This document shows positions 1,730 through 51,123 of a stretch of DNA of 64,000 nt, piece by piece. The notes under the pieces were generated by a model. The model was not told the origin of the DNA and did no database searches. It saw only the letters and a program-made list of their open reading frames with translations. Source of the stretch: a phage. A program made the position numbers and the translations under genes. Position 1 is the first letter of the stretch. Each line of letters starts with the position of its first letter. The stretch lies in NCBI GenBank assembly GCA_022143435.1, contig GCA_022143435.1_3941.1; one strand, written 5' to 3'.

Positions 1730-1879
1730 TTACTGGAAGTTGTGCTTATCTTTAGAAGCTGCTTTACGTGCAGTTTTTCCAGTTCTTACACGTTTTTCTT
1801 CATAGTATTTTGCTGGTTTTCCAGCAGTGGCTTTTAAGGAATCCCCAAAAACTTTTTCAAATGCTTTAGAGTGTTTCAT
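1730..1879 (-). CDS. small basic protein (49 aa), hypothetical
   Basis: ATG with GGAG 6 nt upstream; below the ORF-track size cutoff; lysine/arginine rich. Confidence 0.4.
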   Translation of the reverse strand: MKHSKAFEKVFGDSLKATAGKPAKYYEEKRVRTGKTARKAASKDKHNFQ

Positions 1880-2131
1880 GATATTCTCCGATATACTTGA
1901 TATTCAAACACATTTTCTTTCATTATAAACAGCCAACCAATATTATGCTGAGGCAGTGTAATGATGACTGTAATCATACTTTGATGGAACTGTTGTTCTA
2001 TTTCAACTTCTCCATCGCATTTCATGTGGAGCATTCTATAGAACCTATCAATCTTTGTCAAACACTCTTCATGAAATTTATTTAAACTTTTTTCTTCAAA
2101 GAAGGGTGTGAACCCCTCTCTTTTATAGCTA

Positions 2132-4117
2132 TCACTCAGTTTCGAACGGGCAGTCATCTGCATCCTCACTTAATACAGGTGGAATCGTTGAGCTTTGACG
2201 CTGCTCTTCAGTATAGACTTCACCAGTCTCACGGTCAAACACTTCGTCCTCATAATGTGGCAAAGAGTCATCGTAATGGTCTTCAGCTTCACCAATACCA
2301 AACTGCTGGCGAATATTTTCTGCTGCACCATCAATATCAACACCACATCCAGAAGCTTTGATAAGACGTCCTGTATCTGGATTGTACCAAGTATGACCAG
2401 CAATACCTGTTGACTTACCATGACGACGACACTTAGTTAACTTGATTTTTGTCAAGTTTTTCTTAACAGGGTCTGGGTCAACCTTGTTACGCATTAACAG
2501 AATGTTGTTCATAGAAATCTGGAAATACGCACCAGAACCTTTAATATCCTCTTCAGAGATATCTCCACCTTCGGAGTTAGCCTTCTGACCACCTGCACTC
2601 TTACGAACGTGACATACGTTTACCTGCGCATACTGGTAGCGTTTGCAACGACGCAATAGCTCAGATAAAACTTCCTCTTCATCCGTATCTGAACGTGACA
2701 GAGCCAACGTAATAGGGTCAAGAATAATAATCTTACAGTCTAAGCTGTTAACAAGATAGTCAACAAACTCCAGCAAGTTATCTTGGTCAATTGCCCCTTG
2801 ATGGTCAACGATGTGGATACGACGACCTTTAGACAGTTCTGCGTGTGCCTTCTTCAATTCATCCCAATCACGTTCGTCATAAGGAATCTCAGAAATCTGC
2901 TTGCTCAGGTGGATTGCACAGAGCATCTCCATCAACTCTTCATAGGTATCTTCTACAGGAATTACACCAATATTGTAATCGGTATCTTTCCAAGCAGTAT
3001 AAATCATTTCACGAGTGTATGCAGATTTACCCACTGAAGATGGTGCTGCCAGAGTTGTAATCTCACCTAAACCGTAACCACCATAAGTCAGTCTGTTCAA
3101 ATCCCCGAAAGATTCTGGGAAAGGAATCAATGGAATCTGACCACGATTCTTCATTGCCTCAAAACCATCTGCAAAGTTCTTGATACCAGCAGGGCAATAA
3201 CGAGGTGCGTTGTAGATACGCTGCTTAAATCCTTCCAGAACTGTGTCTTTCTCTTTATAGAACTTTGTCCACCATTCGTTAAGGTCTTTTACACCCTCTG
3301 GATACTGGAATAAACGAACCTTCTCGATAGGTAAGATACCAGCAGCCTCTTTGGTAGCTTTAGCACCTGCTTCATCGTTATCAAAGCACAAGTAAATTTC
3401 ATCAAATGATGTGATGTACTGATAGTTATCTTTGATAGACTTGATGTTTGCACCTGATGGAACAGATACGTGACAGTAATTCTTACGACGAGACTTATCT
3501 TTAATCGCCAAAGAAGTCATGTAGATAGCTGTCGCACATTCCATCTCACCTTCCCAGATGAACAGTCGGTTCCCACCTTCTGGAGCAATCCATGAACCGA
3601 ACATTACCAGTTCACCTTTGATATCTCCAACACCACCTGAAAAGTCTTTTAACTTACCACGTAGGTGTTCTTTTGGATGGTCTTCTGGGTAACGGTGACG
3701 AACACGGTAGCCAACATGTTCTAGCTTGCCATCTTCATTACGTTTATAAGTTGGATAGAAATGTGCATCAATTTCACCATCACTATCAATGTCAACCTTG
3801 ATACCTAAACGTTCAAGGACTTTTGCAGGGATTTTCCTGTCTTTCAAGTCCATTGCTTCAAGGTTTTCTTTCACATCGTCTAAATCCATTCCACGGAAAG
3901 TACGGTTTTTATTGTCTGAACCAGTAGAATAAGTGCTCACGATTTGTCCTTTATCAAAATCCCACTCTGGGAAACCTTTGTTACAGCTAAAGCAAGTCAT
4001 CGAATAAGAATCATCGTCATGATGATAGATTGAACCAGCATCTGATGAACCACAACGTGGACATGCACAATGACCAATAAACTGACCAGCCTCTTTCAAT
4101 TTACGACCTTTAGACAT
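2132..4117 (-). CDS. bifunctional DNA primase-helicase (T7 gp4-like)
   Basis: N-terminal Cys4 zinc finger (CACPRCGSS...CFSCNKG), TOPRIM-like FDNDEAG, DnaB-type Walker A (AAPSSVGKSAYT); ATG 4117 preceded by GAGGTG. Confidence 0.9.
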   Translation of the reverse strand: MSKGRKLKEAGQFIGHCACPRCGSSDAGSIYHHDDDSYSMTCFSCNKGFPEWDFDKGQIVSTYSTGSDNKNRTFRGMDLDDVKENLEAMDLKDRKIPAKVLERLGIKVDIDSDGEIDAHFYPTYKRNEDGKLEHVGYRVRHRYPEDHPKEHLRGKLKDFSGGVGDIKGELVMFGSWIAPEGGNRLFIWEGEMECATAIYMTSLAIKDKSRRKNYCHVSVPSGANIKSIKDNYQYITSFDEIYLCFDNDEAGAKATKEAAGILPIEKVRLFQYPEGVKDLNEWWTKFYKEKDTVLEGFKQRIYNAPRYCPAGIKNFADGFEAMKNRGQIPLIPFPESFGDLNRLTYGGYGLGEITTLAAPSSVGKSAYTREMIYTAWKDTDYNIGVIPVEDTYEELMEMLCAIHLSKQISEIPYDERDWDELKKAHAELSKGRRIHIVDHQGAIDQDNLLEFVDYLVNSLDCKIIILDPITLALSRSDTDEEEVLSELLRRCKRYQYAQVNVCHVRKSAGGQKANSEGGDISEEDIKGSGAYFQISMNNILLMRNKVDPDPVKKNLTKIKLTKCRRHGKSTGIAGHTWYNPDTGRLIKASGCGVDIDGAAENIRQQFGIGEAEDHYDDSLPHYEDEVFDRETGEVYTEEQRQSSTIPPVLSEDADDCPFETE

Positions 4118-5123: not shown

Positions 5124-5924
5124 TTAGTGCAGTTGCTCAGCAGACTCTTTTTCAGCCATAGCTGAGATTTGCTTCACAAAATCATCACCGAAGTTAATGC
5201 GTAGTTTCTCTTCAATGATTGAAGCACCAATGTTCACCAAAACATCATTGATTGCTTGCATACTAACGCCACCAGTCATTTCCTCAATGAACTCAATACT
5301 CACACCCATCATCTGTGACAGTTGGATTAGTGCAACGATATTCATCATCGTAGATATAGCTGGAATCATCAGTGCAACTTTCACCTGAAGTGGTTCAATG
5401 TCAGCTACAGAGTCATTTTCAACAGCTTCTTCCAAAGACTCTTTAGTTTGCTGGATAATCTCTTTGATTCGTGGGTTTAATTCTTCTACGCCCCAATCAA
5501 GTTTTTCATATCGTGAAAGTTTCTCTTCCATACGCTTCTCAAGAACAGCCATAACAGCACTCGTTGATGAGATAAGCGTATCAATAATGAAATCAGTGTC
5601 CTTAGTCAGCAACAGTTCCTTATCTTCGTCTGACATCCTGATATAGTCATTCTTTTGCATTTCATAAAAAATGAACTCAGCAAGTGCATCAACACCAACC
5701 GCAATAGATGCCAGAGCAAGTGTAGTGTCTGTCAACATCATATTAACCTGTTCTGCAAAAGCACCGTTATCAGACTTGTCTTCAGGCAAGTTATAGCTTG
5801 CAGGCATAAACTGTTCTGTGTAGTTGTTGCCACGAAGAATCATAGCCATGCTTTCTACGGCATTGATTAAGAATGCTTCATCAACACCTTTCTCTTCAAG
5901 CATCTTTTCTACATCGATATTCAT
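5124..5924 (-). CDS. hypothetical protein
   Basis: 266-aa ORF, no motif recognised. Confidence 0.5.
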   Translation of the reverse strand: MNIDVEKMLEEKGVDEAFLINAVESMAMILRGNNYTEQFMPASYNLPEDKSDNGAFAEQVNMMLTDTTLALASIAVGVDALAEFIFYEMQKNDYIRMSDEDKELLLTKDTDFIIDTLISSTSAVMAVLEKRMEEKLSRYEKLDWGVEELNPRIKEIIQQTKESLEEAVENDSVADIEPLQVKVALMIPAISTMMNIVALIQLSQMMGVSIEFIEEMTGGVSMQAINDVLVNIGASIIEEKLRINFGDDFVKQISAMAEKESAEQLH

Positions 5925-11893: not shown

Positions 11894-11926
11894 GAGCAGC
11901 ATAAACCAACGGGTACTCACCAGCAT

Positions 11927-12215
11927 CACTTAAGAGCCTTTCTAAGAGGGTTTTTAAGTGAGGTTCGGTATGGTACAGTAGGCTCTGGCTTGGTATGGTT
12001 TGGTGATGTTCGGTGTGGTACGGCGGTGTAAGGTATGGTATGGGTAGTTAGTCTCAGCTACATTAAAATGAGACTTACCTTTTTAAAAGGTCTTTAAAAG
12101 GGTCTTTTAATAAGGTATGGTGAGGTAGGGTTAGGCGAGGTCAGGTTTGGTAAGGTATGGGTGGATGGTAGCAGCCACGTTAAAAATCTACCAAGTTTCT
12201 AAAGAGTCTTCTGTT
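11927..12215. repeat. G-rich repeat/hairpin block 1 (GGTNNGG tracts plus three conserved hairpin modules)
   Basis: Shares about 80-bp near-identical element (12032-12116 vs 13511-13590) and hairpin modules with block 2. Confidence 0.8.
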
Positions 12216-12250
12216 GAGGGTTCTTTACAAACAACTTAACAATCAACTAA

Positions 12251-12856
<606 letters not shown>

Positions 12857-12858
12857 TT

Positions 12859-13299
12859 ATGAATACAAAAGCATTAGCAGCAAAGTTTAGTTACGGTGAC
12901 ACTGTATCACATTCTGAGATGGACACCTTCTTAGGTATTGTGAAGCCAACTTATCAAGGTGACATTGTTAAGTACGAAGATGAAATGAAGGCTTATGCAC
13001 TTACACGTCTAAACCGACTTGAGAAGTTTATTGAAAAGCTTCTTAAAGAAGAGAAGATTTATCTGGTTGCTTCAATGGGTGTTGGTTATCGTGTGGTTGA
13101 ACCTAAGCATCAAGCAACTATTGCAAAACGTAAAATGTCTGGTAAGATTGGTCGTGCTTTAAAGCAAGCCACTCAAGCGATTGAGAATGTGAATACTATG
13201 GCACTTAGTCATCAAGAACGTTCACGACTGATTGAACAGCAAAACCATTTAGCTGCTATGAAAGCTAACATTAACAAGCAACGTAGAAAACCTTTCTAA
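12859..13299 (+). CDS. hypothetical protein
   Basis: 146-aa ORF adjacent to previous gene. Confidence 0.5.
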   Translation: MNTKALAAKFSYGDTVSHSEMDTFLGIVKPTYQGDIVKYEDEMKAYALTRLNRLEKFIEKLLKEEKIYLVASMGVGYRVVEPKHQATIAKRKMSGKIGRALKQATQAIENVNTMALSHQERSRLIEQQNHLAAMKANINKQRRKPF

Positions 13300-13309
13300 G
13301 TTGACTAGG

Positions 13310-13333
13310 AAGCCTCTTCGGAGGCTCCTTTTT
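13310..13333 (+). terminator. rho-independent terminator
   Basis: GAAGCCTC-TTCG-GAGGCTCC hairpin followed by TTTTT. Confidence 0.7.
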
Positions 13334-13690
13334 AAAAGGTCTTTTAAGAAGGTCTTTTAATGAGGTAAGGTGCGGTCTGGTAAGGCATGGTATGGTTGGG
13401 TGAGGTGAGGTATGGGTAGTTAATCGGAGCTACATTAAAATTCGATTACATCACTTAAAAGTCTTCTAAGAGGATTTTTAAGTGATGTTCGGTAGGGTCT
13501 GGTAGGGTGAGGTATGGGTAGTTAGTCTCAGCTACATTAAAATGAGACTTACCTTTTTAAAATGTCTTTAAAAGGGTCTTTTAACAAGGTATTGTATGGT
13601 GTAGTTTGGTTAGGTATGGTTAGGTGTGGTAAGGTAGGGTATGGAAGGATGGCAGTAGCCTTATAAAAAATCTGCCAAATAAGCTATAAA
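13330..13690. repeat. G-rich repeat/hairpin block 2
   Basis: Second copy of the modules in block 1, with compensatory base changes in hairpin stems. Confidence 0.8.
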
Positions 13691-13768
13691 ATCTGTTGAC
13701 AAGTCAGGTGTTATAGCTTATTTTTATACTCAATGTAATACAAAATTTAATATAACTTTGAGGTCATT

Positions 13769-14152
13769 ATGAAAAAGATTTTATTAGCTGCTGCAATGGT
13801 TATGGCAATGAATTTACCAGTCAATGCAACAGAACTTCCAAATGTGGACTTATCAGGTGTTCCAGAAGACACTTGCCAGATTGTAAAAGGTGTTGCTCTA
13901 GCTAATGGTGAGCTACTTAAACCAATCTCTGAAGAGTCTTTGACAGAGATGACTGATAAAGTAACTGACTATCAGTATCGTGTTCTTGCAGAGTATTTCC
14001 TGCAATCTGCAAACATTAAAGAGAAGCACCATGAAGATATTGATGTACAGGCTATGCTAAATCATCGTATCCAGTTTAAAGAAGATTTGATGCAAAAAGC
14101 TATGTATGGTGTTGAGTATTTCTTAGAAAACAGAAGCTGCACAGGTATTTGA
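13769..14152 (+). CDS. secreted/periplasmic protein, hypothetical
   Basis: Signal peptide MKKILLAAAMVMAMNLPVNA with AxA-like cleavage site. Confidence 0.55.
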   Translation: MKKILLAAAMVMAMNLPVNATELPNVDLSGVPEDTCQIVKGVALANGELLKPISEESLTEMTDKVTDYQYRVLAEYFLQSANIKEKHHEDIDVQAMLNHRIQFKEDLMQKAMYGVEYFLENRSCTGI

Positions 14153-14153
14153 T

Positions 14154-14366
14154 ATGGCTCTTAAAAAGTTACATCCCAGAAGTGGTTATGGTAAGATAGT
14201 CGATGATACAGACGGCTTTACAGTATTTACAGTCATCTGTCAAGATGATTCACAGATTGAAAAGGCTCTTGATGATTATCTTAACGATGAACGTGAAAAG
14301 GTTAGGGCTACAAACATAGATTCATTAATTGACACTTCACGTAAACGGAAGAAGAAAGATGAATGA
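14154..14366 (+). CDS. hypothetical protein
   Basis: 70-aa ORF. Confidence 0.4.
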   Translation: MALKKLHPRSGYGKIVDDTDGFTVFTVICQDDSQIEKALDDYLNDEREKVRATNIDSLIDTSRKRKKKDE

Positions 14367-14658
14367 AGTTTTTGACCCTTATGCTCCACAAGATGATTGG
14401 GAGGCTGACAGAGAGGCTGAAATGGAGAGTTATGTTTGTCCAATGGATGTAGACGAAATGAGAGATTTCGTTGCACACCGTTTTAAGAAAGAGATTAAAT
14501 CCAGAGGTCTTTCTCAAGAGCAAGTTGCTAAAATTTGTGGTATCTCTCAGGCTCGCGTATCCAACATAATCCACCTCACTGGTAATGTCTCCCTTGAGTA
14601 TATGTTGGAAGTATGTGAAAAATTTGGTGTTAATTTCAATTTAAGGCTGGCAGATTAA
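14359..14658 (+). CDS. helix-turn-helix DNA-binding protein
   Basis: HTH LSQEQVAKICGISQARVSNI; start ATG 14359 overlapping upstream stop. Confidence 0.5.
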   Translation: MNEVFDPYAPQDDWEADREAEMESYVCPMDVDEMRDFVAHRFKKEIKSRGLSQEQVAKICGISQARVSNIIHLTGNVSLEYMLEVCEKFGVNFNLRLAD

Positions 14659-14659
14659 T

Positions 14660-15019
14660 ATGAAACGTGAAAACATTATCCACTCTGAAAACTTCGCATT
14701 AGGCTTTTATGGTGTACCTACTCACCTTGAAAAGTATTATGGTGTGAAGATTCTCTCCAATCTCATTATGGCTTACAAAGATGGTAAGATTAAGCATACT
14801 GAGAAGAAACGTGTCATGGGCTATATGGCTGTAGGTTCAGCAATCTCGAACATTAAGCTGGAAACAACTAGCAGTCAGATTGTGAAAGACCACTTCATCA
14901 AAGAGCTTTACCAGAATCTTGATGGTGTAGATGTTCAGGCTGTTTGGCTGGATGTTGACGGTCATAACTACACGAGTTTTGTTTTCAAAAACGACGACAT
15001 TAAGTGTCTGTTCCCATAA
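14660..15019 (+). CDS. hypothetical protein
   Basis: 119-aa ORF. Confidence 0.45.
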   Translation: MKRENIIHSENFALGFYGVPTHLEKYYGVKILSNLIMAYKDGKIKHTEKKRVMGYMAVGSAISNIKLETTSSQIVKDHFIKELYQNLDGVDVQAVWLDVDGHNYTSFVFKNDDIKCLFP

Positions 15020-17288: not shown

Positions 17289-17660
17289 TTATTTTTCAGT
17301 ATTCTTTGTGTTCTTTTCAGTAATAGCTTGGAGGGCTGATACTGATTGAGCCAGATTGTTCACACTGTCAGAGAATTTATCAAGAGTTTTGGTAAGTTTT
17401 GCGTTTTCACCCTTAACATTCTCTAACTGAACTTTCTGGTTCTCCATCCCTAGCTGAATCAGTCTCATGTCAGACTGTAAATCACGAATAGCTGAATAGT
17501 TACTTTTGGAATAATTATCTAGCTGCTGTAACTTTGTTGTGACAGACACTTCTTGTTTACCACTTGAAACTTGCATAGTGGTATACATCCCAATAACACT
17601 AAAAATACCAACTACAATTGCACCAATATTATTTTTAAAAGCTTCCTCTAGCCACTTCAT
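17289..17660 (-). CDS. membrane-anchored coiled-coil protein (possible lysis/holin-like or spanin-like)
   Basis: N-terminal TM segment IGAIVVGIFSVIGMYTT then long heptad-like region; last gene of the tail-fibre operon. Confidence 0.4.
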   Translation of the reverse strand: MKWLEEAFKNNIGAIVVGIFSVIGMYTTMQVSSGKQEVSVTTKLQQLDNYSKSNYSAIRDLQSDMRLIQLGMENQKVQLENVKGENAKLTKTLDKFSDSVNNLAQSVSALQAITEKNTKNTEK

Positions 17661-17855
17661 TTATTTCTCCCCCTTAAAAGCTTTTTCTAAGTTATCTACG
17701 AACTCATCATCAATAGGTGTGTCTGTTTTACTCGCAAGGTATCTTGCAAGCTTAAAGAACACTTTCTCAATCATGTATTCACTTAGAAGGGATAAAATGA
17801 GTTTCCAGAAGAAGCTACCTAGATTTTTTAGAAGAATTGCTAGGATTGTAGGCAT
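17661..17855 (-). CDS. hypothetical small protein
   Basis: 64-aa ORF, hydrophobic N-terminus. Confidence 0.4.
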   Translation of the reverse strand: MPTILAILLKNLGSFFWKLILSLLSEYMIEKVFFKLARYLASKTDTPIDDEFVDNLEKAFKGEK

Positions 17856-41258: not shown

Positions 41259-41334
41259 TGGAGAATCCGAAGGGACTCGAACCCTTATAAACCTGTTTTG
41301 CAGACAGGCACATATCCATTTCTGTCACGGATTC
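41259..41334 (-). tRNA. tRNA-Cys (GCA)
   Basis: Manual cloverleaf; 7-bp acceptor stem; CCA encoded. Confidence 0.65.
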
Positions 41335-41339
41335 AAAAT

Positions 41340-41432
41340 TGGAGGAAGATACCAGACTTGAACTGGTACACCGATTTCTCAGCTACTGGCAGTTTAGCAA
41401 ACTGCTCCCTTACCTTTTAGGGTTAATCTTCC
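41340..41432 (-). tRNA. tRNA-Ser (GCT), class II
   Basis: Long variable arm; anticodon loop TTGCTAA. Confidence 0.6.
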
Positions 41433-41433
41433 A

Positions 41434-42168
41434 TTATTTCTGTAATGCGCTCTTCATTTCTGGTGTTGCAATAGTGTCAATTACACCAGTTTTACAGGCA
41501 TCATCAAACCAGTCTGGTAAGATACCTGCTAAGAACCCATTGATATTCGTTTTAAGGTACTCTGCAATAAGGGCAGCTTCTTCTTCAATCATCTGCACAA
41601 CTTCATCTGCATAAGCTGTAATCTTTGAGATACCTTCATTAATCTTACTGACAGCTTGGTTAGCTAAATCAGAAACAGTATCAAGACCCTTGTCAATAGC
41701 GTCTTGTAAGTCACTTAATACATTGTTAACACTCTCTAGTGTACTGTTAATCATATCAATAGCTTTTTGACCATATTCTGTAGCAACACCCATAATACCA
41801 CTGAACGGTGTACAACCAACTTGTTCTCCTGCTGCACCCATAACATTGGAATATCCCTTTGCTACCTGCATACGTGATGAAAACTCATCAATAGATTTTT
41901 GACCGTAGTCTGTCAGGGTCTTAGTAGTTGCTGTAGTGCTTGTAAGGCTTGTTGTAAAGCTGTTTAGAAGGACTGTTGTAAGTCCAGCAGCAACAAGTTT
42001 CTCCTGCATTGTAGGGTCTGTTACAGAACTAATAGAGCTTACAAGTGATGTAGAAGCAGCTACGGTTCCACCGAGAACTGCTGCACCAGTAATAAGTGGG
42101 TTAGAAAACCCTTTACCGGTTTTTAAGAGATTAAAAATCTCCTTACCTTGTTCTGTCATCTCTTTCAT
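41434..42168 (-). CDS. hypothetical protein embedded in tRNA array
   Basis: Start moved to ATG 42168 (AGGTG upstream) because the track start overlaps tRNA-Phe. Confidence 0.4.
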   Translation of the reverse strand: MKEMTEQGKEIFNLLKTGKGFSNPLITGAAVLGGTVAASTSLVSSISSVTDPTMQEKLVAAGLTTVLLNSFTTSLTSTTATTKTLTDYGQKSIDEFSSRMQVAKGYSNVMGAAGEQVGCTPFSGIMGVATEYGQKAIDMINSTLESVNNVLSDLQDAIDKGLDTVSDLANQAVSKINEGISKITAYADEVVQMIEEEAALIAEYLKTNINGFLAGILPDWFDDACKTGVIDTIATPEMKSALQK

Positions 42169-42184
42169 TAAGCACCTTTGAAAT

Positions 42185-42260
42185 TGGTAGTCCAGTGGGA
42201 TTTGAACCCTCTTCTCATGTTTTTCAGACACGCGCTTTAACCATATAAGCTACTTGGACT
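42185..42260 (-). tRNA. tRNA-Phe (GAA)
   Basis: Manual cloverleaf; anticodon loop CTGAAAA. Confidence 0.6.
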
Positions 42261-42266
42261 ATAAAT

Positions 42267-42342
42267 TGGGGTGACCTACGGGATTTGAACCCGTATAGAC
42301 CATGTTCACAGCATGGGTCATTACCATTTATGATAAGGCCAC
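42267..42342 (-). tRNA. tRNA-His (GTG)
   Basis: Anticodon loop CTGTGAA. Confidence 0.6.
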
Positions 42343-42377
42343 ATTTAAGGACTCTCGTAAGAACCCTTAGAAGTGGC

Positions 42378-42448
42378 AGCGGCATAAGGATTTGAACCTT
42401 AATAGGACAGCTTCAGAGACTGTTGCATTGCCAGTTATGCTATACCGC
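42378..42448 (-). tRNA. tRNA-Gln (CTG)
   Basis: Anticodon loop CTCTGAA; CCA not encoded. Confidence 0.5.
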
Positions 42449-42454
42449 TAAATT

Positions 42455-42533
42455 TGGTACTCCATATCGGATTCGAACCGATACATAACACAGATTTTAA
42501 GTCTGGCCTCTCTGCCAATTGGAGTAATGGAGC
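42455..42533 (-). tRNA. tRNA with anticodon TAA (Leu by anticodon, short variable loop)
   Basis: Good acceptor and T arms; 4-bp anticodon stem; class-I-like length. Confidence 0.45.
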
Positions 42534-42535
42534 AT

Positions 42536-42611
42536 TGGCGGGGGATGTTGGAATTGAACCAACTTCTTCGATTTCAAAGACCGAGGTTTTAACCTTGTAA
42601 ACTAATCCCCT
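42536..42611 (-). tRNA. tRNA-Gln (TTG)
   Basis: Anticodon loop CTTTGAA. Confidence 0.5.
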
Positions 42612-42619
42612 TTAAATCT

Positions 42620-43177
42620 TTACTTTCTTAGTGGATGAATAAAGAATGCCAACATAACTCTTTCCCTTGAGAATGCTCTTTCTTCTGGGACAACACTTTT
42701 TAGCTTCCACCCAATATAAATTCTCCAGTAGAACTGTTTACCAAAGATTTTAATTGATGGGATAAAAGCGAATAATCCCCAAGCATTGCTGTTCCACATT
42801 AGGAGATAACCTGTCTGATTATCTTCAGGGTTAGAACTTACGTTGATATTACCTTTCCACTTAGTAACATCTTTTACATCTCTTCCTAATACATGGTAAG
42901 AGAAGTTATAAGCTTTGTTTCTCCAGAGCCATCCGACTCTTTGCATGTAGACACCTAGTTTACCAATCCATCTAATATTAGCCCATCTTTTAACGTGACC
43001 TTCATCACCATCAATTGGGTTGTCATATGTCTCCATCCATCTGAATCCGAAAGGTAAGTGTCCTTTCTTCTCACTGTAGAATGGAACTACAAAAGGTGCT
43101 AAGATAACTGCTAAGATTGCTGCAAATGGCTCTAACAAAGCTAAGAAAATCCATGAAGCATACTTCAAATATCTCAT
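42620..43177 (-). CDS. membrane protein embedded in tRNA array
   Basis: N-terminal hydrophobic segment WIFLALLEPFAAILAVILAPFVVPF; Trp-rich. Confidence 0.45.
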   Translation of the reverse strand: MRYLKYASWIFLALLEPFAAILAVILAPFVVPFYSEKKGHLPFGFRWMETYDNPIDGDEGHVKRWANIRWIGKLGVYMQRVGWLWRNKAYNFSYHVLGRDVKDVTKWKGNINVSSNPEDNQTGYLLMWNSNAWGLFAFIPSIKIFGKQFYWRIYIGWKLKSVVPEERAFSRERVMLAFFIHPLRK

Positions 43178-43196
43178 CTAAATAGCCTCTTTAAAT

Positions 43197-43272
43197 TGGC
43201 GCAGGATAAGGGATTCGAACCCCTATTAACAGCTTCGTAGACTGTTGCTCTATCCATTTGAACTAATCCTGC
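43197..43272 (-). tRNA. tRNA-Arg (ACG)
   Basis: Anticodon loop CTACGAA. Confidence 0.65.
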
Positions 43273-43277
43273 AAAAT

Positions 43278-43355
43278 TGGTGTTCCAAGACGGATTCGAA
43301 CCGTCACTAGTACAAGGTTTGAGCTTGCATCCTCTGCCAATTGGGATACTGGAAC
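43278..43355 (-). tRNA. tRNA with anticodon CAA (Leu by anticodon, short variable loop)
   Basis: 5-bp anticodon stem, loop CTCAAAC. Confidence 0.45.
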
Positions 43356-43356
43356 A

Positions 43357-43431
43357 TGGTACTCACTAAAGGACTTGAACCTTTTTCTTCATCTTGTAAG
43401 GGTGGTGTTTTACCATATAAACTAAGCGAGT
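43357..43431 (-). tRNA. tRNA-like, anticodon TAC (Val?), weak anticodon stem
   Basis: Good acceptor/D/T arms; anticodon stem has two C-A mismatches. Confidence 0.4.
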
Positions 43432-43527
43432 GTGAAAGAGGTCTGAAGTTGTGCCGCTAACTCAACTCCGTGGAATTTGTTACGGTCTTCAGTTGACTCA
43501 AAGCGGTCTTTCACTTGACCTCTAAAT
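43432..43527 (-). ncRNA. tRNA-sized structured element, not a canonical cloverleaf
   Basis: Perfect 7-bp terminal stem AGAGGTC/GACCTCT enclosing about 73 nt; no standard T-loop. Confidence 0.25.
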
Positions 43528-43603
43528 TGGTGCTCCCACAAGGATTCGAACCCTGATAAGTTGCTTACAAGGCAACCGTAATAGCCAATTATACGATAGG
43601 AGC
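43528..43603 (-). tRNA. tRNA-Thr (TGT)
   Basis: Anticodon loop CTTGTAA. Confidence 0.6.
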
Positions 43604-43610
43604 ATTAATT

Positions 43611-43685
43611 TGGAGCATCCAGAGGGAATCGAACCCTCAACCTCAGTTTGGAAGACTGTAATTTTCCCGTTTAAACTATGGATGC
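43611..43685 (-). tRNA. tRNA-Gly (TCC)
   Basis: Anticodon loop CTTCCAA. Confidence 0.6.
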
Positions 43686-43691
43686 ACTAAT

Positions 43692-43767
43692 TGGTGGAGT
43701 CACTGAGAATTGAACTCAGTTCCCAAGTTTGCAAAACTCGAATTTTAACCATATAAACTATGACCCC
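43692..43767 (-). tRNA. tRNA-Ala (TGC)
   Basis: Anticodon loop TTTGCAA. Confidence 0.6.
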
Positions 43768-43773
43768 ATTTTT

Positions 43774-43849
43774 TGGTACAGGTGGAGGGAATTGAACCCA
43801 TCGTCTTACTGATTAAGAGTCAGCCGCATAACCATTTTGCTACACCTGC
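43774..43849 (-). tRNA. tRNA-Lys (CTT)
   Basis: Anticodon loop CTCTTAA; register slightly ambiguous. Confidence 0.45.
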
Positions 43850-43856
43850 ATTAATT

Positions 43857-43934
43857 TGGTAGGAGACAAGGGATTCGAACCCTCAAACACCAACTTCTAA
43901 GGATGGTAGGTTTACCAATTACCGTCAATCTCCC
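43857..43934 (-). tRNA. tRNA with anticodon TAG (Leu by anticodon)
   Basis: Anticodon loop CTTAGAA, 4/5 stem pairs. Confidence 0.4.
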
Positions 43935-44190
43935 ATTAAATCTTTTTAGAGAACTTCTAAGAACCTAAGCAACAAGGTTCCACAACAAGCTGTAATAACC
44001 TTAGAAGCCCTCTAAAAAGACCTAAAAAGGTCTTTGCATAGTCTTGTTTAATCCGGTGACTAGAACCTTTGGAGAGCTTGATATTATCTCTTCTCCGTGA
44101 CACCTACTAGGTGCTTTACTGTGCGTGTACGACAATACACTAGGGATACCAAAGCAACATCCGAATGAAGCTTGGCTTTAAATCTTATTA

Positions 44191-44269
44191 GGCGGTAAGT
44201 AAAGGAGTCGAACCCTCACCGTATCTCTACAGTGGCAACTGTTTTCAAGACAGTTTGGCTACCATTAGC
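44191..44269 (-). tRNA. tRNA-Ser (TGA), class II
   Basis: Anticodon stem ACTGT/ACAGT, loop CTTGAAA, long variable arm. Confidence 0.55.
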
Positions 44270-44293
44270 CGCTACCTACCCCTAATAAGACTT

Positions 44294-44376
44294 TGGCATG
44301 GGACGGAGGAGTTGAACCCCTTTGAAACGGTTTTGGAGGCCGTTGCTCATGCCTTAGAGTCTTAACATCGCCCCAT
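44294..44376 (-). tRNA. tRNA-like with Trp-type anticodon loop CTCCAAA (CCA)
   Basis: Anticodon arm matches E. coli tRNA-Trp loop; D region about 7 nt too long for a standard cloverleaf. Confidence 0.35.
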
Positions 44377-44518
44377 ACTATAATTCGAAGCTTACCGTAT
44401 TATCTCAACACTGTAAAGCCCCTTCTCAGATTATTTACATGTTCTGGAAAACATGAGATACAGACCACCTCCCTACAGGAAGACCCGCTTAGGTCGTCTA
44501 AGTAATCTGCTAACTAAT

Positions 44519-44595
44519 TGGTACACCCTACAGGATTCGAACCTGTAACTAACGATTTAGAAGACCGTTGCTCTATCCAATTGAACTAAGGGTGC
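44519..44595 (-). tRNA. tRNA-Arg (TCT)
   Basis: Anticodon loop CTTCTAA. Confidence 0.6.
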
Positions 44596-44798
44596 ATTAA
44601 TCTTTAAAGACTCTCTTAGAAAGCCCTTAAAGATGCCCACCTTATTAATCATACCGTGGGCTAGTACGCCAAATTCTTTGATGAGGGATTGGAAGACCTC
44701 ACTGGTGTTTAGCCTATCAAGCTACTGCCAGAAAAACATTGTCGTTTGCATTTATTTTAAATTTGCAAAATAGACGCTACGCAACGAAAACTAAGGTT

Positions 44799-44827
44799 AC
44801 TATAAAGTAGTCACATCTCAATGTCAA
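44799..44827 (-). promoter_or_regulatory. sigma70-like promoter inside tRNA array (TTGACA-N17-TATAGT)
   Basis: Read on minus strand; would drive the tRNAs at lower coordinates. Confidence 0.5.
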
Positions 44828-44842
44828 CAACTTTATTGAAAT

Positions 44843-44917
44843 TGGTTGTAGGTGAGGGTATCGAACCCTCTTCTAACGGTTATCAGCCGTTTGCATTACC
44901 ATTTATGCTAACCCACA
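44843..44917 (-). tRNA. tRNA-Ile (GAT)
   Basis: Anticodon loop CTGATAA. Confidence 0.65.
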
Positions 44918-44919
44918 AT

Positions 44920-44996
44920 TGGAGGTTCAGATGGGAATCGAACCCACATTCATAGGGCTTATGAGACCCTTGCATTACCTTATCTGCGACTGAACC
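44920..44996 (-). tRNA. tRNA-Met (CAT)
   Basis: Anticodon loop CTCATAA. Confidence 0.6.
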
Positions 44997-45000
44997 ATTT

Positions 45001-45076
45001 TGGTAGAAGTGGAGGGATTCGAACCCATCGCCTGTCAGATTAAAAGTCTGCCGCATCACCATTCTGCTACACTTCC
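45001..45076 (-). tRNA. tRNA-Lys (TTT)
   Basis: Anticodon loop CTTTTAA. Confidence 0.55.
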
Positions 45077-45081
45077 ATTAA

Positions 45082-45229
45082 ATTATCTTTGTAGATAAGC
45101 TACCCAGACTTGCTTAAGGTCTGTAGCGATGTGCCTTTTTGGGTTTAAATCTAGAATTTACCCTTTCACCCTTTGTGGTCGCATACTCACAGGTAAGCTT
45201 AATAACTTATCTACAAAGATAATTACCAG
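45082..45229. repeat. 18-bp inverted repeat (ATTATCTTTGTAGATAAG ... CTTATCTACAAAGATAAT) flanking about 110 bp
   Basis: Read directly; inside a tRNA-free gap of the array. Confidence 0.7.
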
Positions 45230-45504
45230 ACCGTTGTTTATCATCTTAAGTGCTACCATTACACCAACTCGACATCTGCCGAGTGAAGGAATCGAACCTT
45301 CGCCTTTTCTTTACCGAGAAATAGATTGTTTAAGTTTTGCTGTAAACGGTCTTCTGTAAATTTGTTGAGCCAGACCAAGTTTTAGATTTTCAAAATTAAA
45401 TTGGCTTGAAATTTCATACGTTCTTGCTGTATTTGGTCTTCTGCTCCTTTAAAGGATACTCGTAAGAACCCTTTAAGGGAGGGGCTAAATAGCCCTCTCA
45501 AAAT

Positions 45505-45583
45505 TGGCGGTTACGAAGGGATTTGAACCCTCATCATCTCCCGTGACAGGGGAGTATTTTAACCAAATTAAACTACATAACCT
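45505..45583 (-). tRNA. tRNA-Asp (GTC)
   Basis: Anticodon stem CTCCC/GGGAG, loop CTGTCAC. Confidence 0.65.
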
Positions 45584-45587
45584 TTAT

Positions 45588-45675
45588 TGGTGTGCCGTGT
45601 AGGAGTCGAACCTACCGAGTCTCAATGACAAGGGATTTACAGTCCCCACCGCTACCATCTACGGGATAACGACAC
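45588..45675 (-). tRNA. tRNA-Tyr (GTA), class II
   Basis: Anticodon loop CTGTAAA with long variable arm. Confidence 0.6.
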
Positions 45676-45684
45676 ATTTAAATT

Positions 45685-45761
45685 TGGCGGTTAGTCAGGG
45701 ATTCGAACCCTGTGCCATTCGCTTAACAGGCTACCGCACATACCTTATGTGCTTCCTAACC
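45685..45761 (-). tRNA. tRNA-Asn (GTT), imperfect anticodon stem
   Basis: Anticodon loop CTGTTAA; good acceptor and T arms. Confidence 0.45.
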
Positions 45762-45838
45762 TTAATACATTGCCAGACCGTGTTTTTTCTTTTATCCGCA
45801 AAAAGTAGTTTGTTGCTGAATACGGTCTTCTGCAAAAT

Positions 45839-45915
45839 TGGAGGCGGGTGCAGGAGTCGAACCTGCCGATACCATGCTAATGAGACATGTGAGACGCCCT
45901 TTCTCTATACCCGCA
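45839..45915 (-). tRNA. tRNA with anticodon CAT (second Met, initiator or Ile-lysidine type)
   Basis: Anticodon loop CTCATTA. Confidence 0.5.
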
Positions 45916-46006
45916 ATTCTTAATGACCAGACCAAATCTCTTCTTTGTCCGATTTCGTGTCAGATGAATAAGATTAAACTTGCTGTAATTGGTCTTCTGT
46001 CAAAAC

Positions 46007-46084
46007 TGGCGTTCCAGAAGGGATTTGAACCCTCAAATATCCACTTTGAAAGAGTGGTGACTTTACCATTTTGTCTACTGGAAC
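46007..46084 (-). tRNA. tRNA-Glu (TTC)
   Basis: Anticodon stem CCACT/AGTGG, loop CTTTCAA. Confidence 0.65.
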
Positions 46085-46091
46085 ATTAATT

Positions 46092-46168
46092 TGGTCTCTG
46101 TTGGAGGACTTGAACCTCCGGCCTTACCGTCCCAAACGGAACGCTCTACCAATCTGAGCTAAACAGAG
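46092..46168 (-). tRNA. tRNA-Pro (TGG)
   Basis: Canonical D arm GCTCAGATTGGTAGAGC; anticodon loop TTTGGGA. Confidence 0.65.
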
Positions 46169-49460: not shown

Positions 49461-49832
49461 ATGAAAGCTAAGAGTGCAAAAGACTTTTATTGCTTCCTAC
49501 AATCCTATATCAATTCCGTGCAAAATGGTGAAAGGTACAACCTTAATGATGTTATCCCAACACCTTTGACATGGAGACTCAGCAAATGGCCTGAAGAAGA
49601 TATTACACCAACAAGCGAACAGCGTACCTACAAACCTGAAATCAATATTCCAGATTCTGAGAACCTATTATACCCAATGTTCCATATTGTTGGACTTGGA
49701 AGATTCCTTATGGATATCCAGTATGTAATTGGTAAAGGTTATAAGGTTAAAGGTATTGTTGTTGGTGATGTATCTCCGCATCACAAAGGTTATTTTAGAC
49801 TAAACGCACATTTAGAGGCTAAAAAGAAATGA
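49461..49832 (+). CDS. hypothetical protein, paralogous to N-terminal domain of next gene
   Basis: Shared motifs YKP and FMDLQYVI with 49829-50659. Confidence 0.45.
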   Translation: MKAKSAKDFYCFLQSYINSVQNGERYNLNDVIPTPLTWRLSKWPEEDITPTSEQRTYKPEINIPDSENLLYPMFHIVGLGRFLMDIQYVIGKGYKVKGIVVGDVSPHHKGYFRLNAHLEAKKK

Positions 49833-50659
49833 TTAAAGCAAAGACTTACCCAGACTTCAAAGAGTTTGTGAAGGGCTTCGTTGAAAATGTAAAGGCTGGT
49901 AAGAGATATGATTTTAGAACATATCAGGAGGCTATTTTACCGCTTACCTATAGTTCGTATTGGCCTGAAGCTGATATTGCAGAAGTTGAGAAGTTTGACT
50001 ACAAACCAGACTACAAAGTTCCATTTAGTGATGAGTTGCTTTACAGCGTTGGTGCTCAAATGAGAACTTCTGACTTCTTCATGGATTTGCAGTATGTAAT
50101 CATCAATGGTAAAGATGTTGACACAATTTACTGTGAATGGTTGGCAAGAGTTAAGCCTTTCTCAATGTTGAATGCTAAGTTGAAGGATGCTATTAAGCCA
50201 CCAGCAATTACTCAGCAACCAACAGGTCAAACAGTCAATGAGGGTGGCACACTTACTCTAAGCATTCTAGCAACTAACGCCACTGGATATCAGTGGAAGA
50301 AGGATGGTGAGGACATCCCTAGTGCCAATTCTGCAACTTACACAAAACAGTCAGTAGCACCTTCTGACGCTGGTTCATACACTTGTGTTGTATCTGGAGA
50401 GGGTGGAACAAGTGTTACCTCAGATACAGCAACAGTGACTGTGAACGCACTACCTGTGATTACACAACAACCTTCTAGCCAGACCATCAATGAGGGTGGA
50501 AACATCAACTTGGAAGTGACTGCAACTACTGCAACTTACACCAAAGAAGGTGCAACCGCTGCTGATGCAGGAAGCTACACTTGTGTAGTTACTGGTGCAG
50601 GTGGCTCTGTAACATCTAATGCGGCAACAGTTACAGTTAACCCAGCAGAGGAGGCATAA
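49829..50659 (+). CDS. protein with two C-terminal Ig-like domains
   Basis: Tandem repeats ITQQP...NEGG...GSYTCVV...TVTVN (Ig-like Y-x-C signature). Confidence 0.55.
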   Translation: MIKAKTYPDFKEFVKGFVENVKAGKRYDFRTYQEAILPLTYSSYWPEADIAEVEKFDYKPDYKVPFSDELLYSVGAQMRTSDFFMDLQYVIINGKDVDTIYCEWLARVKPFSMLNAKLKDAIKPPAITQQPTGQTVNEGGTLTLSILATNATGYQWKKDGEDIPSANSATYTKQSVAPSDAGSYTCVVSGEGGTSVTSDTATVTVNALPVITQQPSSQTINEGGNINLEVTATTATYTKEGATAADAGSYTCVVTGAGGSVTSNAATVTVNPAEEA

Positions 50660-51123
50660 TGCAACTCTCAAGAAAAGGTTTAGATGCTATTAAGTTCTTC
50701 GAAGGTCTGAAGTTAGAGGCTTACGAAGACTCTGCCGGAATCCCAACAATCGGGTATGGGACAATCCGTATTGACGGAAAACCTGTTAAGATGGGTATGA
50801 AAATTACTGCTGAACAAGCTGAACAGTATCTTCTCGCAGATGTTGAAAAGTTCGTTGCAGCAGTGAACAAATCCATCAAGGTTCCAACTTCTCAGAATGA
50901 GTTCGATGCACTTGTAAGTGAAACATACAACATCGGTATCACAGCTATGCAGGATTCTACATTTATCAAGCGCCACAATGCTGGTAATAAGGTAGGTTGT
51001 GCAGAAGCTATGCAGTGGTGGAACAAGGTTACAGTCAAAGGTCAGAAGGTCACTTCAAACGGCCTGAAAAACAGACGTAGAATGGAAGCTGACATTTATC
51101 TTGACAGTGTATATCCAAAGTAA
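50659..51123 (+). CDS. lysozyme (GH24, T4 e-like) endolysin
   Basis: Catalytic region EGLKLEAYEDSAGIPTIGYG (Glu-Asp-Thr triad spacing). Confidence 0.85.
   Translation: MQLSRKGLDAIKFFEGLKLEAYEDSAGIPTIGYGTIRIDGKPVKMGMKITAEQAEQYLLADVEKFVAAVNKSIKVPTSQNEFDALVSETYNIGITAMQDSTFIKRHNAGNKVGCAEAMQWWNKVTVKGQKVTSNGLKNRRRMEADIYLDSVYPK

What the first reader, a model, noticed from the sequence alone, without database searches (positions are those of the whole stretch)
13769..14152. Phage-encoded protein with a classical signal peptide
The 127-aa protein starts MKKILLAAAMVMAMNLPVNA followed by a charged mature domain, so it is likely exported to the periplasm. It sits downstream of repeat block 2, among small regulator-like genes. 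Exported early phage proteins are often involved in superinfection exclusion or receptor masking.
Basis: partly seen in the sequence, partly recalled or inferred. Interest (0 to 1): 0.35.

Follow-up and report, generated by a model that had tools for sequence, protein, structure and literature searches.

The report
Exported early protein of Felix-O1-like phage
A small gene in this Felix O1-type phage almost certainly makes a protein that is exported to the space between the host's two membranes early in infection; its job is unknown, but it is the fastest-diverging shared gene found, which fits a role in excluding rival phages.

Summary
Window 13769-14152 (+) encodes a 127-aa protein starting MKKILLAAAMVMAMNLPVNA|TELPN, with a textbook Sec/signal-peptidase-I signal. 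The window is a Felixounavirus genome; the gene is the Felix O1 Felix01p155 / wV8 gp094 orthologue (PHROG 4332), annotated "hypothetical" in every record inspected.

Export is supported by comparison. All 32 family members, carrying 16 different signal peptides, keep the MKK start, an uncharged hydrophobic core, [A/V/T]-x-A with invariant Ala at -1, and two invariant cysteines. Sequence identity in the signal region is only 17%. One natural chimera is joined exactly at the predicted cleavage site.

The mature 107-aa acidic domain is confidently modelled as a three-helix bundle with no informative structural or sequence relative. The family is confined to Ounavirinae.

The gene is the first cistron of an operon behind a conserved sigma-70-like promoter. 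It is under strong purifying selection within the genus (mature dN/dS 0.06). It is nevertheless the most divergent of 52 genes shared with Suspvirus SUSP2 (32% against a median of 90%).

Function is not established. The best guess is a Spackle-like periplasmic binder mediating type-specific superinfection exclusion (about 0.3). It has no homology to any known exclusion or antiholin protein. Interest is moderate.

The parts
13311..13326 (+). Terminator-like hairpin (AGCCTCTTCGGAGGCT + T-run) ending the upstream transcription unit
   Evidence: The identical hairpin is found at the equivalent place in SUSP2 and annotated as a terminator in ASO1B.
13330..13660 (+). Intergenic repeat block ('repeat block 2'): TTTTAAAAGGTC-type short repeats, G/T-rich GGTANGGT runs and a ~102-nt unit present 2.2 times. 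Context only; no demonstrated link to the gene.
   Evidence: No Rfam match.
13696..13724 (+). Sigma-70-like promoter TTGACA-17-TATTTT, 45 nt upstream of the ATG at its 3' end
   Evidence: The same element sits at the same distance in SUSP2, Michonne and metagenomic L007. GTTGACA is invariant in a 5-lineage alignment. Annotated as a promoter in ASO1B.
13760..13763 (+). Shine-Dalgarno GAGG, 5-nt spacer to the ATG
   Evidence: (G)GAGG or a weaker purine-rich stretch lies at the same place in the orthologue alignment
13769..13828 (+). Signal peptide coding part (residues 1-20, MKKILLAAAMVMAMNLPVNA); predicted signal peptidase I cleavage after Ala20
   Evidence: dN/dS is 0.87 here against 0.06 in the mature part. 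pLDDT is below 50 for residues 1-18. The chimera junction in P0017 falls at this boundary.
13829..14149 (+). Mature domain (residues 21-127): acidic three-helix bundle (H31-45, H55-87, H93-121) with an invariant GE(L)xK(P) loop between helices 1 and 2
   Evidence: AF2 model with mature blocks at pLDDT 83-99; conservation
13874..13876 (+). Codon of Cys36 (invariant; in helix 1)
14138..14140 (+). Codon of Cys124 (invariant; in the C-terminal tail R-x-C-x-G). Inferred disulfide partner of Cys36.
   Evidence: The disulfide itself is an inference; coordinates of the model were not available.
14154..14366 (+). Downstream 70-aa protein (PHROG 4473), start 2 nt after the stop of the exported protein. 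The gene order is conserved in all lineages.
14359..14658 (+). HTH_3 (Cro/C1-type) regulator, third gene of the conserved cassette. Start taken as the ATG used in related records; the ORF list gives TTG at 14329.

Best explanation
The gene encodes a small secreted protein. It is transcribed by host RNA polymerase from a conserved sigma-70-type promoter as the first cistron of an early/middle operon. The other genes in that operon are a 70-aa protein, an HTH regulator, three unknowns, DHFR and thymidylate synthase.

**Export (about 0.9 likely).** The product is taken through the Sec pathway, cut by signal peptidase I after Ala20, and released as a soluble periplasmic protein. That mature form is 107 aa, acidic (net -9) and a three-helix bundle. 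The C-terminal tail is probably stapled to helix 1 by a Cys36-Cys124 disulfide (inferred).

**General mode of action (inferred from design).** It is a tight-binding periplasmic protein, an inhibitor or blocker, not an enzyme. Its likely contact surface is the invariant GE-L-x-K-P loop with the variable patch at residues 42-46 next to it.

**Specific role I commit to (about 0.3-0.35 likely).** It protects the already infected cell against secondary infection by related phages. This would be type-specific superinfection exclusion at the envelope-penetration or DNA-entry step, analogous in design to T4 Spackle but with an unrelated sequence and fold, and an unknown target.

**Shown:** the ORF, its purifying selection, conservation of the signal-peptide features, the fold prediction, conservation of the promoter, and the divergence pattern.

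**Inferred:** export, cleavage site, disulfide, timing, binder role and exclusion.
For: **Real, constrained gene.**
- ORF and ribosome-binding site.
- dN/dS is 0.10 overall, 0.06 for the mature part and 0.03 for residues 48-127, across 8 Felixounaviruses.
- Found in 259 phage records by tblastn, against 254 records matched by the surrounding DNA.

**Export.**
- Canonical n/h/c regions are kept in 16 distinct signal peptides, with Ala at -1 invariant and 17% sequence identity to the other genera.
- The signal region evolves almost neutrally (dN/dS 0.87).
- P0017 joins a Felix-type signal peptide to a Moogle-type mature domain at the predicted cleavage site.
- AF2 leaves residues 1-18 disordered, apart from a confident bundle.
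- Two cysteines are invariant at about 30% identity.

**Early expression.** The promoter is conserved in position in four lineages, with a terminator just upstream. Felix O1 encodes no host-RNA-polymerase-modifying genes (abstract of PMC3185647).

**Binder rather than enzyme.** It is 107 aa, all-helical and matches only generic or designed three-helix binders. There is no Pfam, NCBIfam or PADLOC family hit.

**Specificity-type evolution.**
- It is the most divergent of 52 genes shared with SUSP2: 32.3% against a median of 90.5%, with tail fibres at 57-69%.
- It is the lowest of the operon in all four other lineages.
- Identities fall into discrete classes: 215 records at 90% or more, 43 below 60%, and one in between.
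- There is a local hot spot at residues 38-47 (dN/dS 0.42).
- SUSP2 and several Felixounaviruses were isolated on the same host, E. coli K-12 MG1655. Host difference alone therefore does not explain the divergence.

**Design parallel with T4 Spackle.** Spackle is an early gene product with a cleaved signal, a 75-aa helical bundle and one disulfide, and its partner surface on gp5 lysozyme is strongly basic (PMC7677548; sequence).
Against: **No functional data exist for this family.**
- Literature searches found only table entries naming it hypothetical.

**No relation to known proteins.**
- hhalign against T4 Sp aligns only the signal peptide (probability 15%). Against T4 RI the probability is 0.2%.

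**No Spackle-type target is evident.**
- Pfam finds no peptidoglycan-hydrolase domain in the tape measure, hub or baseplate proteins.
- PHROGs gives only a secondary hit to an 'endolysin' family for the Dit-like protein.

**Phage structural proteins that could be targets are much better conserved than this protein.**
- Hub 93% and tape measure 78% identity to SUSP2.

**The divergence pattern is not specific to exclusion.**
- It would equally fit an anti-defence or host-envelope effector.
- It would also fit a module of older ancestry, since the whole operon is at 59-81%.

**Limits of the tests.**
- SignalP was not run.
- The disulfide geometry could not be measured.
Confidence: 0.33

Rival explanations
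1. It modulates a host periplasmic or envelope component. The exported bundle would bind a host protein, for example a periplasmic protease or nuclease, a peptidoglycan or LPS assembly factor, an envelope-stress sensor, or the periplasmic part of a membrane-embedded defence system. The effect would be to favour phage development or to disarm an envelope-based defence.
For: It rests on the same export and binder evidence. Extreme between-genus divergence with strong within-genus constraint is also typical of anti-defence or host-interface proteins. It is expressed from the first position of an early operon. The gene is near-universal across three genera.
Against: Phages carrying the 32%-identical alleles share the same laboratory host, E. 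coli K-12 MG1655. A conserved host target would be expected to constrain the sequence more. No similarity to any known anti-defence or host-binding protein was found, and there is no meaningful PADLOC hit. No candidate target was identified.
Confidence: 0.25
2. It regulates lysis timing, as an RI-like antiholin or periplasmic sensor. The exported protein would bind the periplasmic domain of a membrane lysis protein and delay lysis, possibly in response to superinfection.
For: The overall design resembles T4 RI: a small protein with an N-terminal export signal and a helical periplasmic domain (rI sequence fetched; knowledge of RI from the literature cited). The phage has a soluble, holin-dependent endolysin without a SAR domain. 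It also has a 123-aa protein with one N-terminal transmembrane segment and about 85 aa of predicted periplasmic coiled coil, at 17289-17660 (-), annotated 'holin' in relatives. That protein could offer a periplasmic binding surface.
Against: hhalign probability against RI is 0.2%. The candidate partner and its 64-aa neighbour are 82-92% identical in lineages where the exported protein is 30-32% identical, so there is no co-divergence. The gene is not near the lysis genes and sits in the DNA-metabolism operon. I found no report of lysis inhibition in Felix O1-like phages, though the searches did not target it.
Confidence: 0.15
3. It is not a released periplasmic protein. The hydrophobic N-terminus would be an uncleaved membrane anchor, or a chance hydrophobic start of a cytoplasmic protein.
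For: No signal-peptide predictor or experiment was available. Internal Met codons at positions 10, 12 and 14 could in principle serve as starts, and one database entry (P0004, 116 aa) begins at Met12.
Against: The h-region is only 11-16 uncharged residues, too short for a stable transmembrane helix. It is followed by a helix-breaker and [A/V/T]xA in every member. All full-length orthologues start with MKK behind a Shine-Dalgarno sequence. Two invariant cysteines in a 107-aa acidic domain fit an oxidising compartment. P0004 comes from a short 4.5-kb contig.
Confidence: 0.07

Closest known systems
T4 Spackle (Sp, gp61.3), periplasmic inhibitor of the tail lysozyme gp5
   Same: Both are early genes of a virulent contractile-tailed coliphage. 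Both start MKK and carry a cleavable Sec signal ending AxA. Both mature forms are small, acidic, all-helical bundles with two cysteines, one near the mature N-terminus and one near the C-terminus. In Sp these form the Cys29-Cys81 disulfide (PMC7677548).
   Different: No detectable homology exists: hhalign aligns only the signal peptide, at 15% probability. The topology differs: three long helices here, against a flat bundle of short helices in Sp. Sp is absent from the top structural matches. The mature part is 107 aa against 75 aa. No gp5-like lysozyme domain was found in this phage's tail proteins. The target and the phenotype are unknown.
T4 RI antiholin
   Same: Both are small exported phage proteins with a helical periplasmic domain that acts by binding another protein's periplasmic domain.
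   Different: There is no homology. RI uses a signal-anchor-release type N-terminus, whereas here the signal is a short classical cleavable one. The only candidate partner does not co-diverge with this protein.
Lipoprotein exclusion factors (T5 Llp, phi80/N15 Cor)
   Same: They are phage-encoded, Sec-exported and act in the envelope against secondary infection.
   Different: Those proteins are lipoproteins with a lipobox and act on outer-membrane protein receptors. This protein has no Cys at +1 and no lipobox. Felix O1-type phages use LPS core as their receptor (established knowledge, not tested here).
PHROG 4332 / Felix01p155 / wV8 gp094 (uncharacterised Ounavirinae family)
   Same: This gene is a full-length member: E 5e-67 over the whole profile, and 94-100% identity to about 215 Felixounavirus records.
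   Different: Nothing differs. The family simply has no assigned function or described export signal in the records and papers seen.

Membership tests
Sec-dependent, signal peptidase I-cleaved signal peptide | Positively charged n-region | tested here: met
   M-K-K is invariant in 32 of 32 members
Sec-dependent, signal peptidase I-cleaved signal peptide | Uncharged hydrophobic h-region of about 7-15 residues, too short for a membrane anchor | tested here: met
   Uncharged runs are 11-16 residues with mean KD 2.1-2.9. No charged residue follows K3 except one Lys at -2 in P0017.
Sec-dependent, signal peptidase I-cleaved signal peptide | Small neutral residues at -3 and -1 (AxA rule), and no Pro at +1 | tested here: met
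   VxA, AxA or TxA in all 16 distinct signal peptides. Ala at -1 is invariant, and +1 is T, M, D or N.
Sec-dependent, signal peptidase I-cleaved signal peptide | Actual translocation and cleavage | not testable with these tools
   Needs SignalP/DeepTMHMM as a formal prediction, plus PhoA fusion, cell fractionation or N-terminal mass spectrometry.
Bacterial lipoprotein (signal peptidase II) / Llp-Cor type exclusion lipoproteins | Lipobox [LVI][ASTVI][GAS]C with Cys at +1 | tested here: not met
   No Cys lies at the cleavage site. The Cys at position 7 of Moogle-type signal peptides is preceded by Leu and lies only 3 residues after the n-region.
Tat signal peptide | Twin-arginine motif S/T-R-R-x-F-L-K | tested here: not met
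   No Arg occurs in any of the 16 signal peptides.
T4 Spackle family | Sequence homology to Sp | tested here: not met
   hhalign probability 15.5%, with only residues 1-19 (the signal peptide) aligned.
T4 Spackle family | Spackle fold | tested here: not met
T4 Spackle family | A tail-associated lysozyme (gp5-like) as target in the same phage group | tested here: inconclusive
   No peptidoglycan-hydrolase Pfam domain was found in the tape measure, Dit-like, hub or baseplate proteins. PHROGs gives a secondary 'endolysin' family hit (E 5e-21) for the Dit-like 264-aa protein. No enzymatic information is available.
T4 Spackle family | Exclusion of secondary phage / inhibition of lysis from without | not testable with these tools
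   Needs expression and infection assays.
T4 RI antiholin | Sequence homology to RI | tested here: not met
   hhalign probability 0.2%.
T4 RI antiholin | A cognate holin with a periplasmic domain that it binds | tested here: inconclusive
   A protein with one transmembrane segment and a coiled coil exists at 17289-17660 (-). It is 82-92% conserved where this protein is 30-32% conserved. Binding was not testable.
Inner-membrane exclusion proteins (T4 Imm, P22 SieA) | Integral membrane protein with transmembrane helices in the mature part | tested here: not met
   The mature domain is acidic and has no hydrophobic segment. It is modelled as a soluble three-helix bundle.
PHROG 4332 (Ounavirinae hypothetical protein family) | Full-length profile match | tested here: met
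   E 5e-67, residues 1-127 against profile positions 1-126 of 126.

The most novel reading that the evidence does not exclude
The family is a structurally new class of periplasmic exclusion factor whose discrete, highly diverged alleles (Felix-, Susp-, several Moogle- and L007-types) define mutual-exclusion or self-recognition groups among Ounavirinae that compete for the same hosts. Alleles would be exchanged by recombination, as in the chimeric P0017. The variable patch at residues 42-46, next to the invariant GE-L-x-K-P loop, would set specificity toward a component of the incoming phage's penetration or DNA-delivery machinery.
Probability: 0.2. Interest if true: 0.6.

Novelty: new member of a known kind. 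Interest (0 to 1): 0.35.

Why it matters
Felix O1-like phages are widely used for Salmonella and E. coli typing, biocontrol and therapy cocktails, yet none of their early accessory genes has a known envelope function.

A conserved exported early protein is the most obvious candidate for how these phages protect an infected cell from competitors or reshape the envelope. If it excludes related phages in an allele-specific way, it would affect which phages can be combined in cocktails. It would also add a Spackle-independent solution to the same problem.

If it instead targets a host periplasmic factor, it would point to an envelope process or defence that matters for this phage group.

The practical value now is a precise, cheap experiment on a well-defined 127-aa protein.

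Tried and rejected
1. **Domain and family libraries.** Pfam, NCBIfam and PADLOC gave nothing meaningful. The only hits were a sub-threshold match of the signal peptide to a fimbrial protein N-terminus and a 0.017 PADLOC hit. PHROGs gave only the unannotated family 4332.

2. **Remote homology.**
- Exhaustive phmmer over 1.84 billion representatives gave 6 hits, all family members except one marginal match to a 1571-aa protein.
- A profile search over 5.8 billion proteins gave 33 hits, all full-length family members at E of 1e-36 or better, with nothing between that and 0.01.
- A PDB profile search gave nothing below E 0.26.

4. **Direct tests against T4 Sp and RI** were negative.

5. **Search for a Spackle-type target.** Looking for a tail lysozyme in the tail and baseplate proteins gave no clear result.

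6. **SAR-endolysin idea rejected.** The endolysin is a soluble Phage_lysozyme without an N-terminal hydrophobic segment.

7. **Antiholin idea weakened** by the lack of co-divergence with the putative membrane lysis proteins.

8. **RNA element in the upstream repeat block.** No Rfam match was found.

9. **Literature.** No paper discusses the gene beyond listing it as hypothetical.

10. **Complex prediction.** A multimer or fusion prediction with candidate partners is likewise not possible with the tool.

Full report
**What is there**

The window is a Felix O1-like myovirus (Ounavirinae, Felixounavirus). The 4.5 kb around the finding is 94-97% identical to many E. coli, Salmonella and Shigella Felixounavirus genomes.

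A GAGG Shine-Dalgarno lies 5 nt upstream. The gene is the orthologue of Felix O1 Felix01p155 (NP_944938) and wV8 gp094. It belongs to PHROG 4332, 'unknown function', and is annotated 'hypothetical protein' in every record inspected.

**Is it a real gene?**

Yes. Across eight Felixounavirus genomes, Nei-Gojobori dN/dS is 0.10 for the whole gene, similar to its operon neighbours at 0.03-0.11. tblastn finds it in 259 phage records. The surrounding DNA matches 254 records, so it is essentially a core gene of the clade.

**Is it exported?**

All classical features of a Sec / signal peptidase I signal are present:
- an MKK n-region;
- a 13-residue uncharged h-region with a peak 9-residue hydropathy of 2.83;
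- Pro at -4, Val at -3 and Ala at -1;
- an acidic start to the mature chain (TELPN).

There is no lipobox and no twin arginine.

The stronger argument is comparative. The family has 32 distinct members in a 5.8-billion-protein collection. They carry 16 different signal peptides of 18-20 residues. Every one keeps MKK, an uncharged core and [A/V/T]-x-A with an invariant Ala at -1. Residues 4-20 are only 17% identical to the window's sequence in the other genera, against 34% for the mature part.

Within Felixounavirus the signal region evolves almost neutrally in sequence (dN/dS 0.87), whereas the mature part is tightly constrained (0.06; 0.03 for residues 48-127). That is the usual behaviour of a signal peptide.

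A natural chimera, Shigella phage vB_SflM_004 (P0017), joins a Felix-type signal peptide to a Moogle-type mature domain exactly at the predicted cleavage site.

Two cysteines, Cys36 and Cys124, are invariant at about 30% overall identity. This fits a disulfide formed in the periplasm.

AlphaFold2 leaves residues 1-18 at pLDDT below 50, and its helix assignment covers only the mature part.

In a crude scan of 210 ORFs of 50 aa or more in the window, this ORF has the strongest h-region among the flagged ORFs that also have a candidate cleavage site. By my reading of the coordinates it is the only flagged one that is a recognisable conserved gene.

I put export and cleavage at about 0.9. SignalP and experiments were not available.

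**The mature protein**

It is 107 aa, 12.2 kDa, pI 4.65, net charge -9. The AF2 model has mean pLDDT 86, with mature blocks at 83-99. It shows three helices (31-45, 55-87, 93-121), that is, a three-helix bundle with a short N-terminal strand-less segment and a six-residue C-terminal tail carrying Cys124.

Invariant positions cluster in three places:
- the helix 1-2 loop (G47-E48-[L]-x-K51-[P]);
- helix 2 (D63, Y76);
- the end of helix 3 and the tail (G114, C124, G126).

Within the genus, amino-acid changes concentrate in the signal peptide and in residues 42-46, directly before the invariant loop (dN/dS 0.42 for residues 38-47).

**No informative relatives**

- Pfam, NCBIfam and PADLOC give nothing meaningful.
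- Exhaustive phmmer against 1.84 billion representatives gives six hits: five family members and one marginal match.
- The profile search gives 33 full-length family members and nothing in the twilight zone.
- A PDB profile search gives nothing.
- BFVD returns only the family's own member from Shigella phage Sf13.

The family is thus confined to Felixounavirus, Suspvirus, Mooglevirus and one related metagenomic lineage (L007).

**Genomic context and timing**

A terminator-like hairpin (13311-13326) ends the preceding unit. A repeat-rich intergenic block follows (13330-13660). Then comes a sigma-70-like promoter, TTGACA-17-TATTTT, at 13696-13724.

The same promoter, with an invariant GTTGACA, sits about 70 nt upstream of the ATG in SUSP2, Michonne, ESh22 and L007.

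The gene is always the first cistron of the same cassette: exported protein / 63-70-aa protein (start 2 nt after the stop) / HTH_3 regulator / 119-121-aa protein / ... / DHFR / thymidylate synthase.

Felix O1 encodes no host-RNA-polymerase-modifying genes (abstract of PMC3185647). Early or middle expression by host RNA polymerase is therefore the natural inference, but it is untested.

**Evolutionary pattern**

I compared all window ORFs with the first 50 kb of Suspvirus SUSP2. Fifty-two genes are shared, with a median protein identity of 90.5%.

| Gene or group | Identity to SUSP2 |
|---|---|
| Exported protein (13769-14152) | 32.3% (lowest of 52) |
| Two tail-fibre genes | 57% and 69% |
| Two genes immediately upstream | 97% and 99% |
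| Rest of its operon | 59-81% |
| Baseplate hub | 93% |
| Tape measure | 78% |

The same ranking within the operon holds for Michonne, ESh22 and L007: 30-34% against 34-77% for the neighbours.

Identities in the phage database fall into discrete classes: 215 records at 90% or more, 43 below 60% and one in between.

SUSP2 and several Felixounaviruses were isolated on the same strain, E. coli K-12 MG1655. Host differences therefore do not obviously explain the divergence.

Strong constraint within a type together with extreme divergence between types is what specificity or conflict proteins tend to show. It does not say which kind.

**Mechanism**

The design is an early, Sec-exported, small, acidic, disulfide-bearing helical bundle. 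That is the design of T4 Spackle, which binds and inhibits the tail lysozyme of incoming phage (PMC7677548; sequence).

I therefore commit to a periplasmic binder that blocks an envelope step of secondary infection by related phages, with a probability of about 0.3.

It is not a Spackle family member:
- hhalign aligns only the signal peptides;
- the folds do not match;
- no gp5-like lysozyme domain is evident in this phage's tail proteins.

Receptor masking in the strict sense is unlikely. The protein is soluble and lacks a lipobox, and the receptor of these phages is LPS core in the outer leaflet (established knowledge, not tested here).

**Rivals**

*(a) A modulator of a host periplasmic or envelope factor, or of an envelope-based defence (about 0.25).* It is equally compatible with the divergence pattern. 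It is weakened only by the shared laboratory host.

*(b) An RI-like lysis-timing regulator (about 0.15).*
- The endolysin at 50659-51123 is soluble and holin-dependent.
- A protein with one transmembrane segment and a coiled coil, annotated 'holin', lies at 17289-17660 (-).
- There is no homology to RI.
- That candidate partner is 82-92% conserved where the exported protein is 30-32% conserved.

*(c) Not exported at all (about 0.07).* This is contradicted by the comparative evidence above.

**Verdict**

The export interpretation is well supported. The functional interpretation is plausible but unproven.

The gene is a member of an already catalogued but uncharacterised family. As a Sec-exported small periplasmic phage protein it is a new member of a known kind.

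Interest is moderate at 0.35. It is an ordinary-looking hypothetical protein, but a well-defined, testable candidate for the envelope-level competition factor of a therapeutically used phage genus. The unexpected extra is that it is the fastest-diverging shared gene found in the comparison.

Noticed in passing
window 11900-12250 and 13330-13660: There are two related intergenic repeat modules. Each contains TTTTAAAAGGTC-type short repeats, G/T-rich GGTANGGT runs and the exact 14-mer GGTATGGGTAGTTA. That 14-mer occurs 3 times (12037, 13409, 13511) against 0.37 expected. Each module sits between a terminator and a sigma-70-like promoter. No Rfam match was found.
   Followed up: partly
window 12254-13299 (+): The two genes between the repeat modules (200 aa and 146 aa) are absent from some Felixounaviruses (RPN213, Ro111lw) and from Michonne and ESh22. 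They are nevertheless 97-99% identical to SUSP2, far above their surroundings. This looks like a recently exchanged cassette bounded by the repeat blocks.
   Followed up: partly
window 17289-17660 (-) and 17661-17855 (-): The gene annotated 'holin' in relatives encodes one N-terminal transmembrane segment plus about 85 aa of coiled coil, a topology more like an i-spanin or a T4-T-type holin. Its 64-aa upstream neighbour has one hydrophobic segment, and its L007 counterpart hits Pfam Phage_PM2_Gpl. Both are 81-92% conserved across genera. The lysis system of this phage group looks non-canonical and unresolved.
   Followed up: partly
P0017 (Shigella phage vB_SflM_004), alignment A4: This is a natural chimera of the exported protein. 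A Felixounavirus-type signal peptide is fused to a Mooglevirus-type mature domain, with the junction at the predicted cleavage site.
   Followed up: partly
window 49829-50659 (+): A 276-aa protein with an Ig-like domain (Pfam Ig_3/I-set; a second similar segment is visible in the sequence) is encoded immediately upstream of, and abutting, the soluble endolysin gene at 50659-51123.
   Followed up: no
window 41259-46168 (-): A cluster of 26 tRNA genes lies here. It includes two tRNA-Met, two tRNA-Gln, two tRNA-Lys, two tRNA-Arg, two tRNA-Ser and three tRNA-Leu. Felix O1 was reported with 22.
   Followed up: no
window 1876-2169 (-) and 5124-5924 (-): After the exported protein, these are the next most divergent genes shared with SUSP2, at 41% and 44% identity against a median of 90%. 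Both are unannotated.
   Followed up: no
GenBank records MG065668.1 ('Campylobacter phage A126') and GU169904.1 ('Staphylococcus phage SA1'): Both records carry a 97-98% identical copy of this Felixounavirus gene. This suggests contamination or chimeric assembly of those records rather than true hosts.
   Followed up: no
window 14154-14366 and 14660-15019 (+): In phage JLBYU32 the orthologues are annotated 'heme-degrading enzyme-like protein' (70 aa) and 'nucleoside triphosphate hydrolase' (119 aa). Pfam, NCBIfam and PADLOC give no support for either name.
   Followed up: partly
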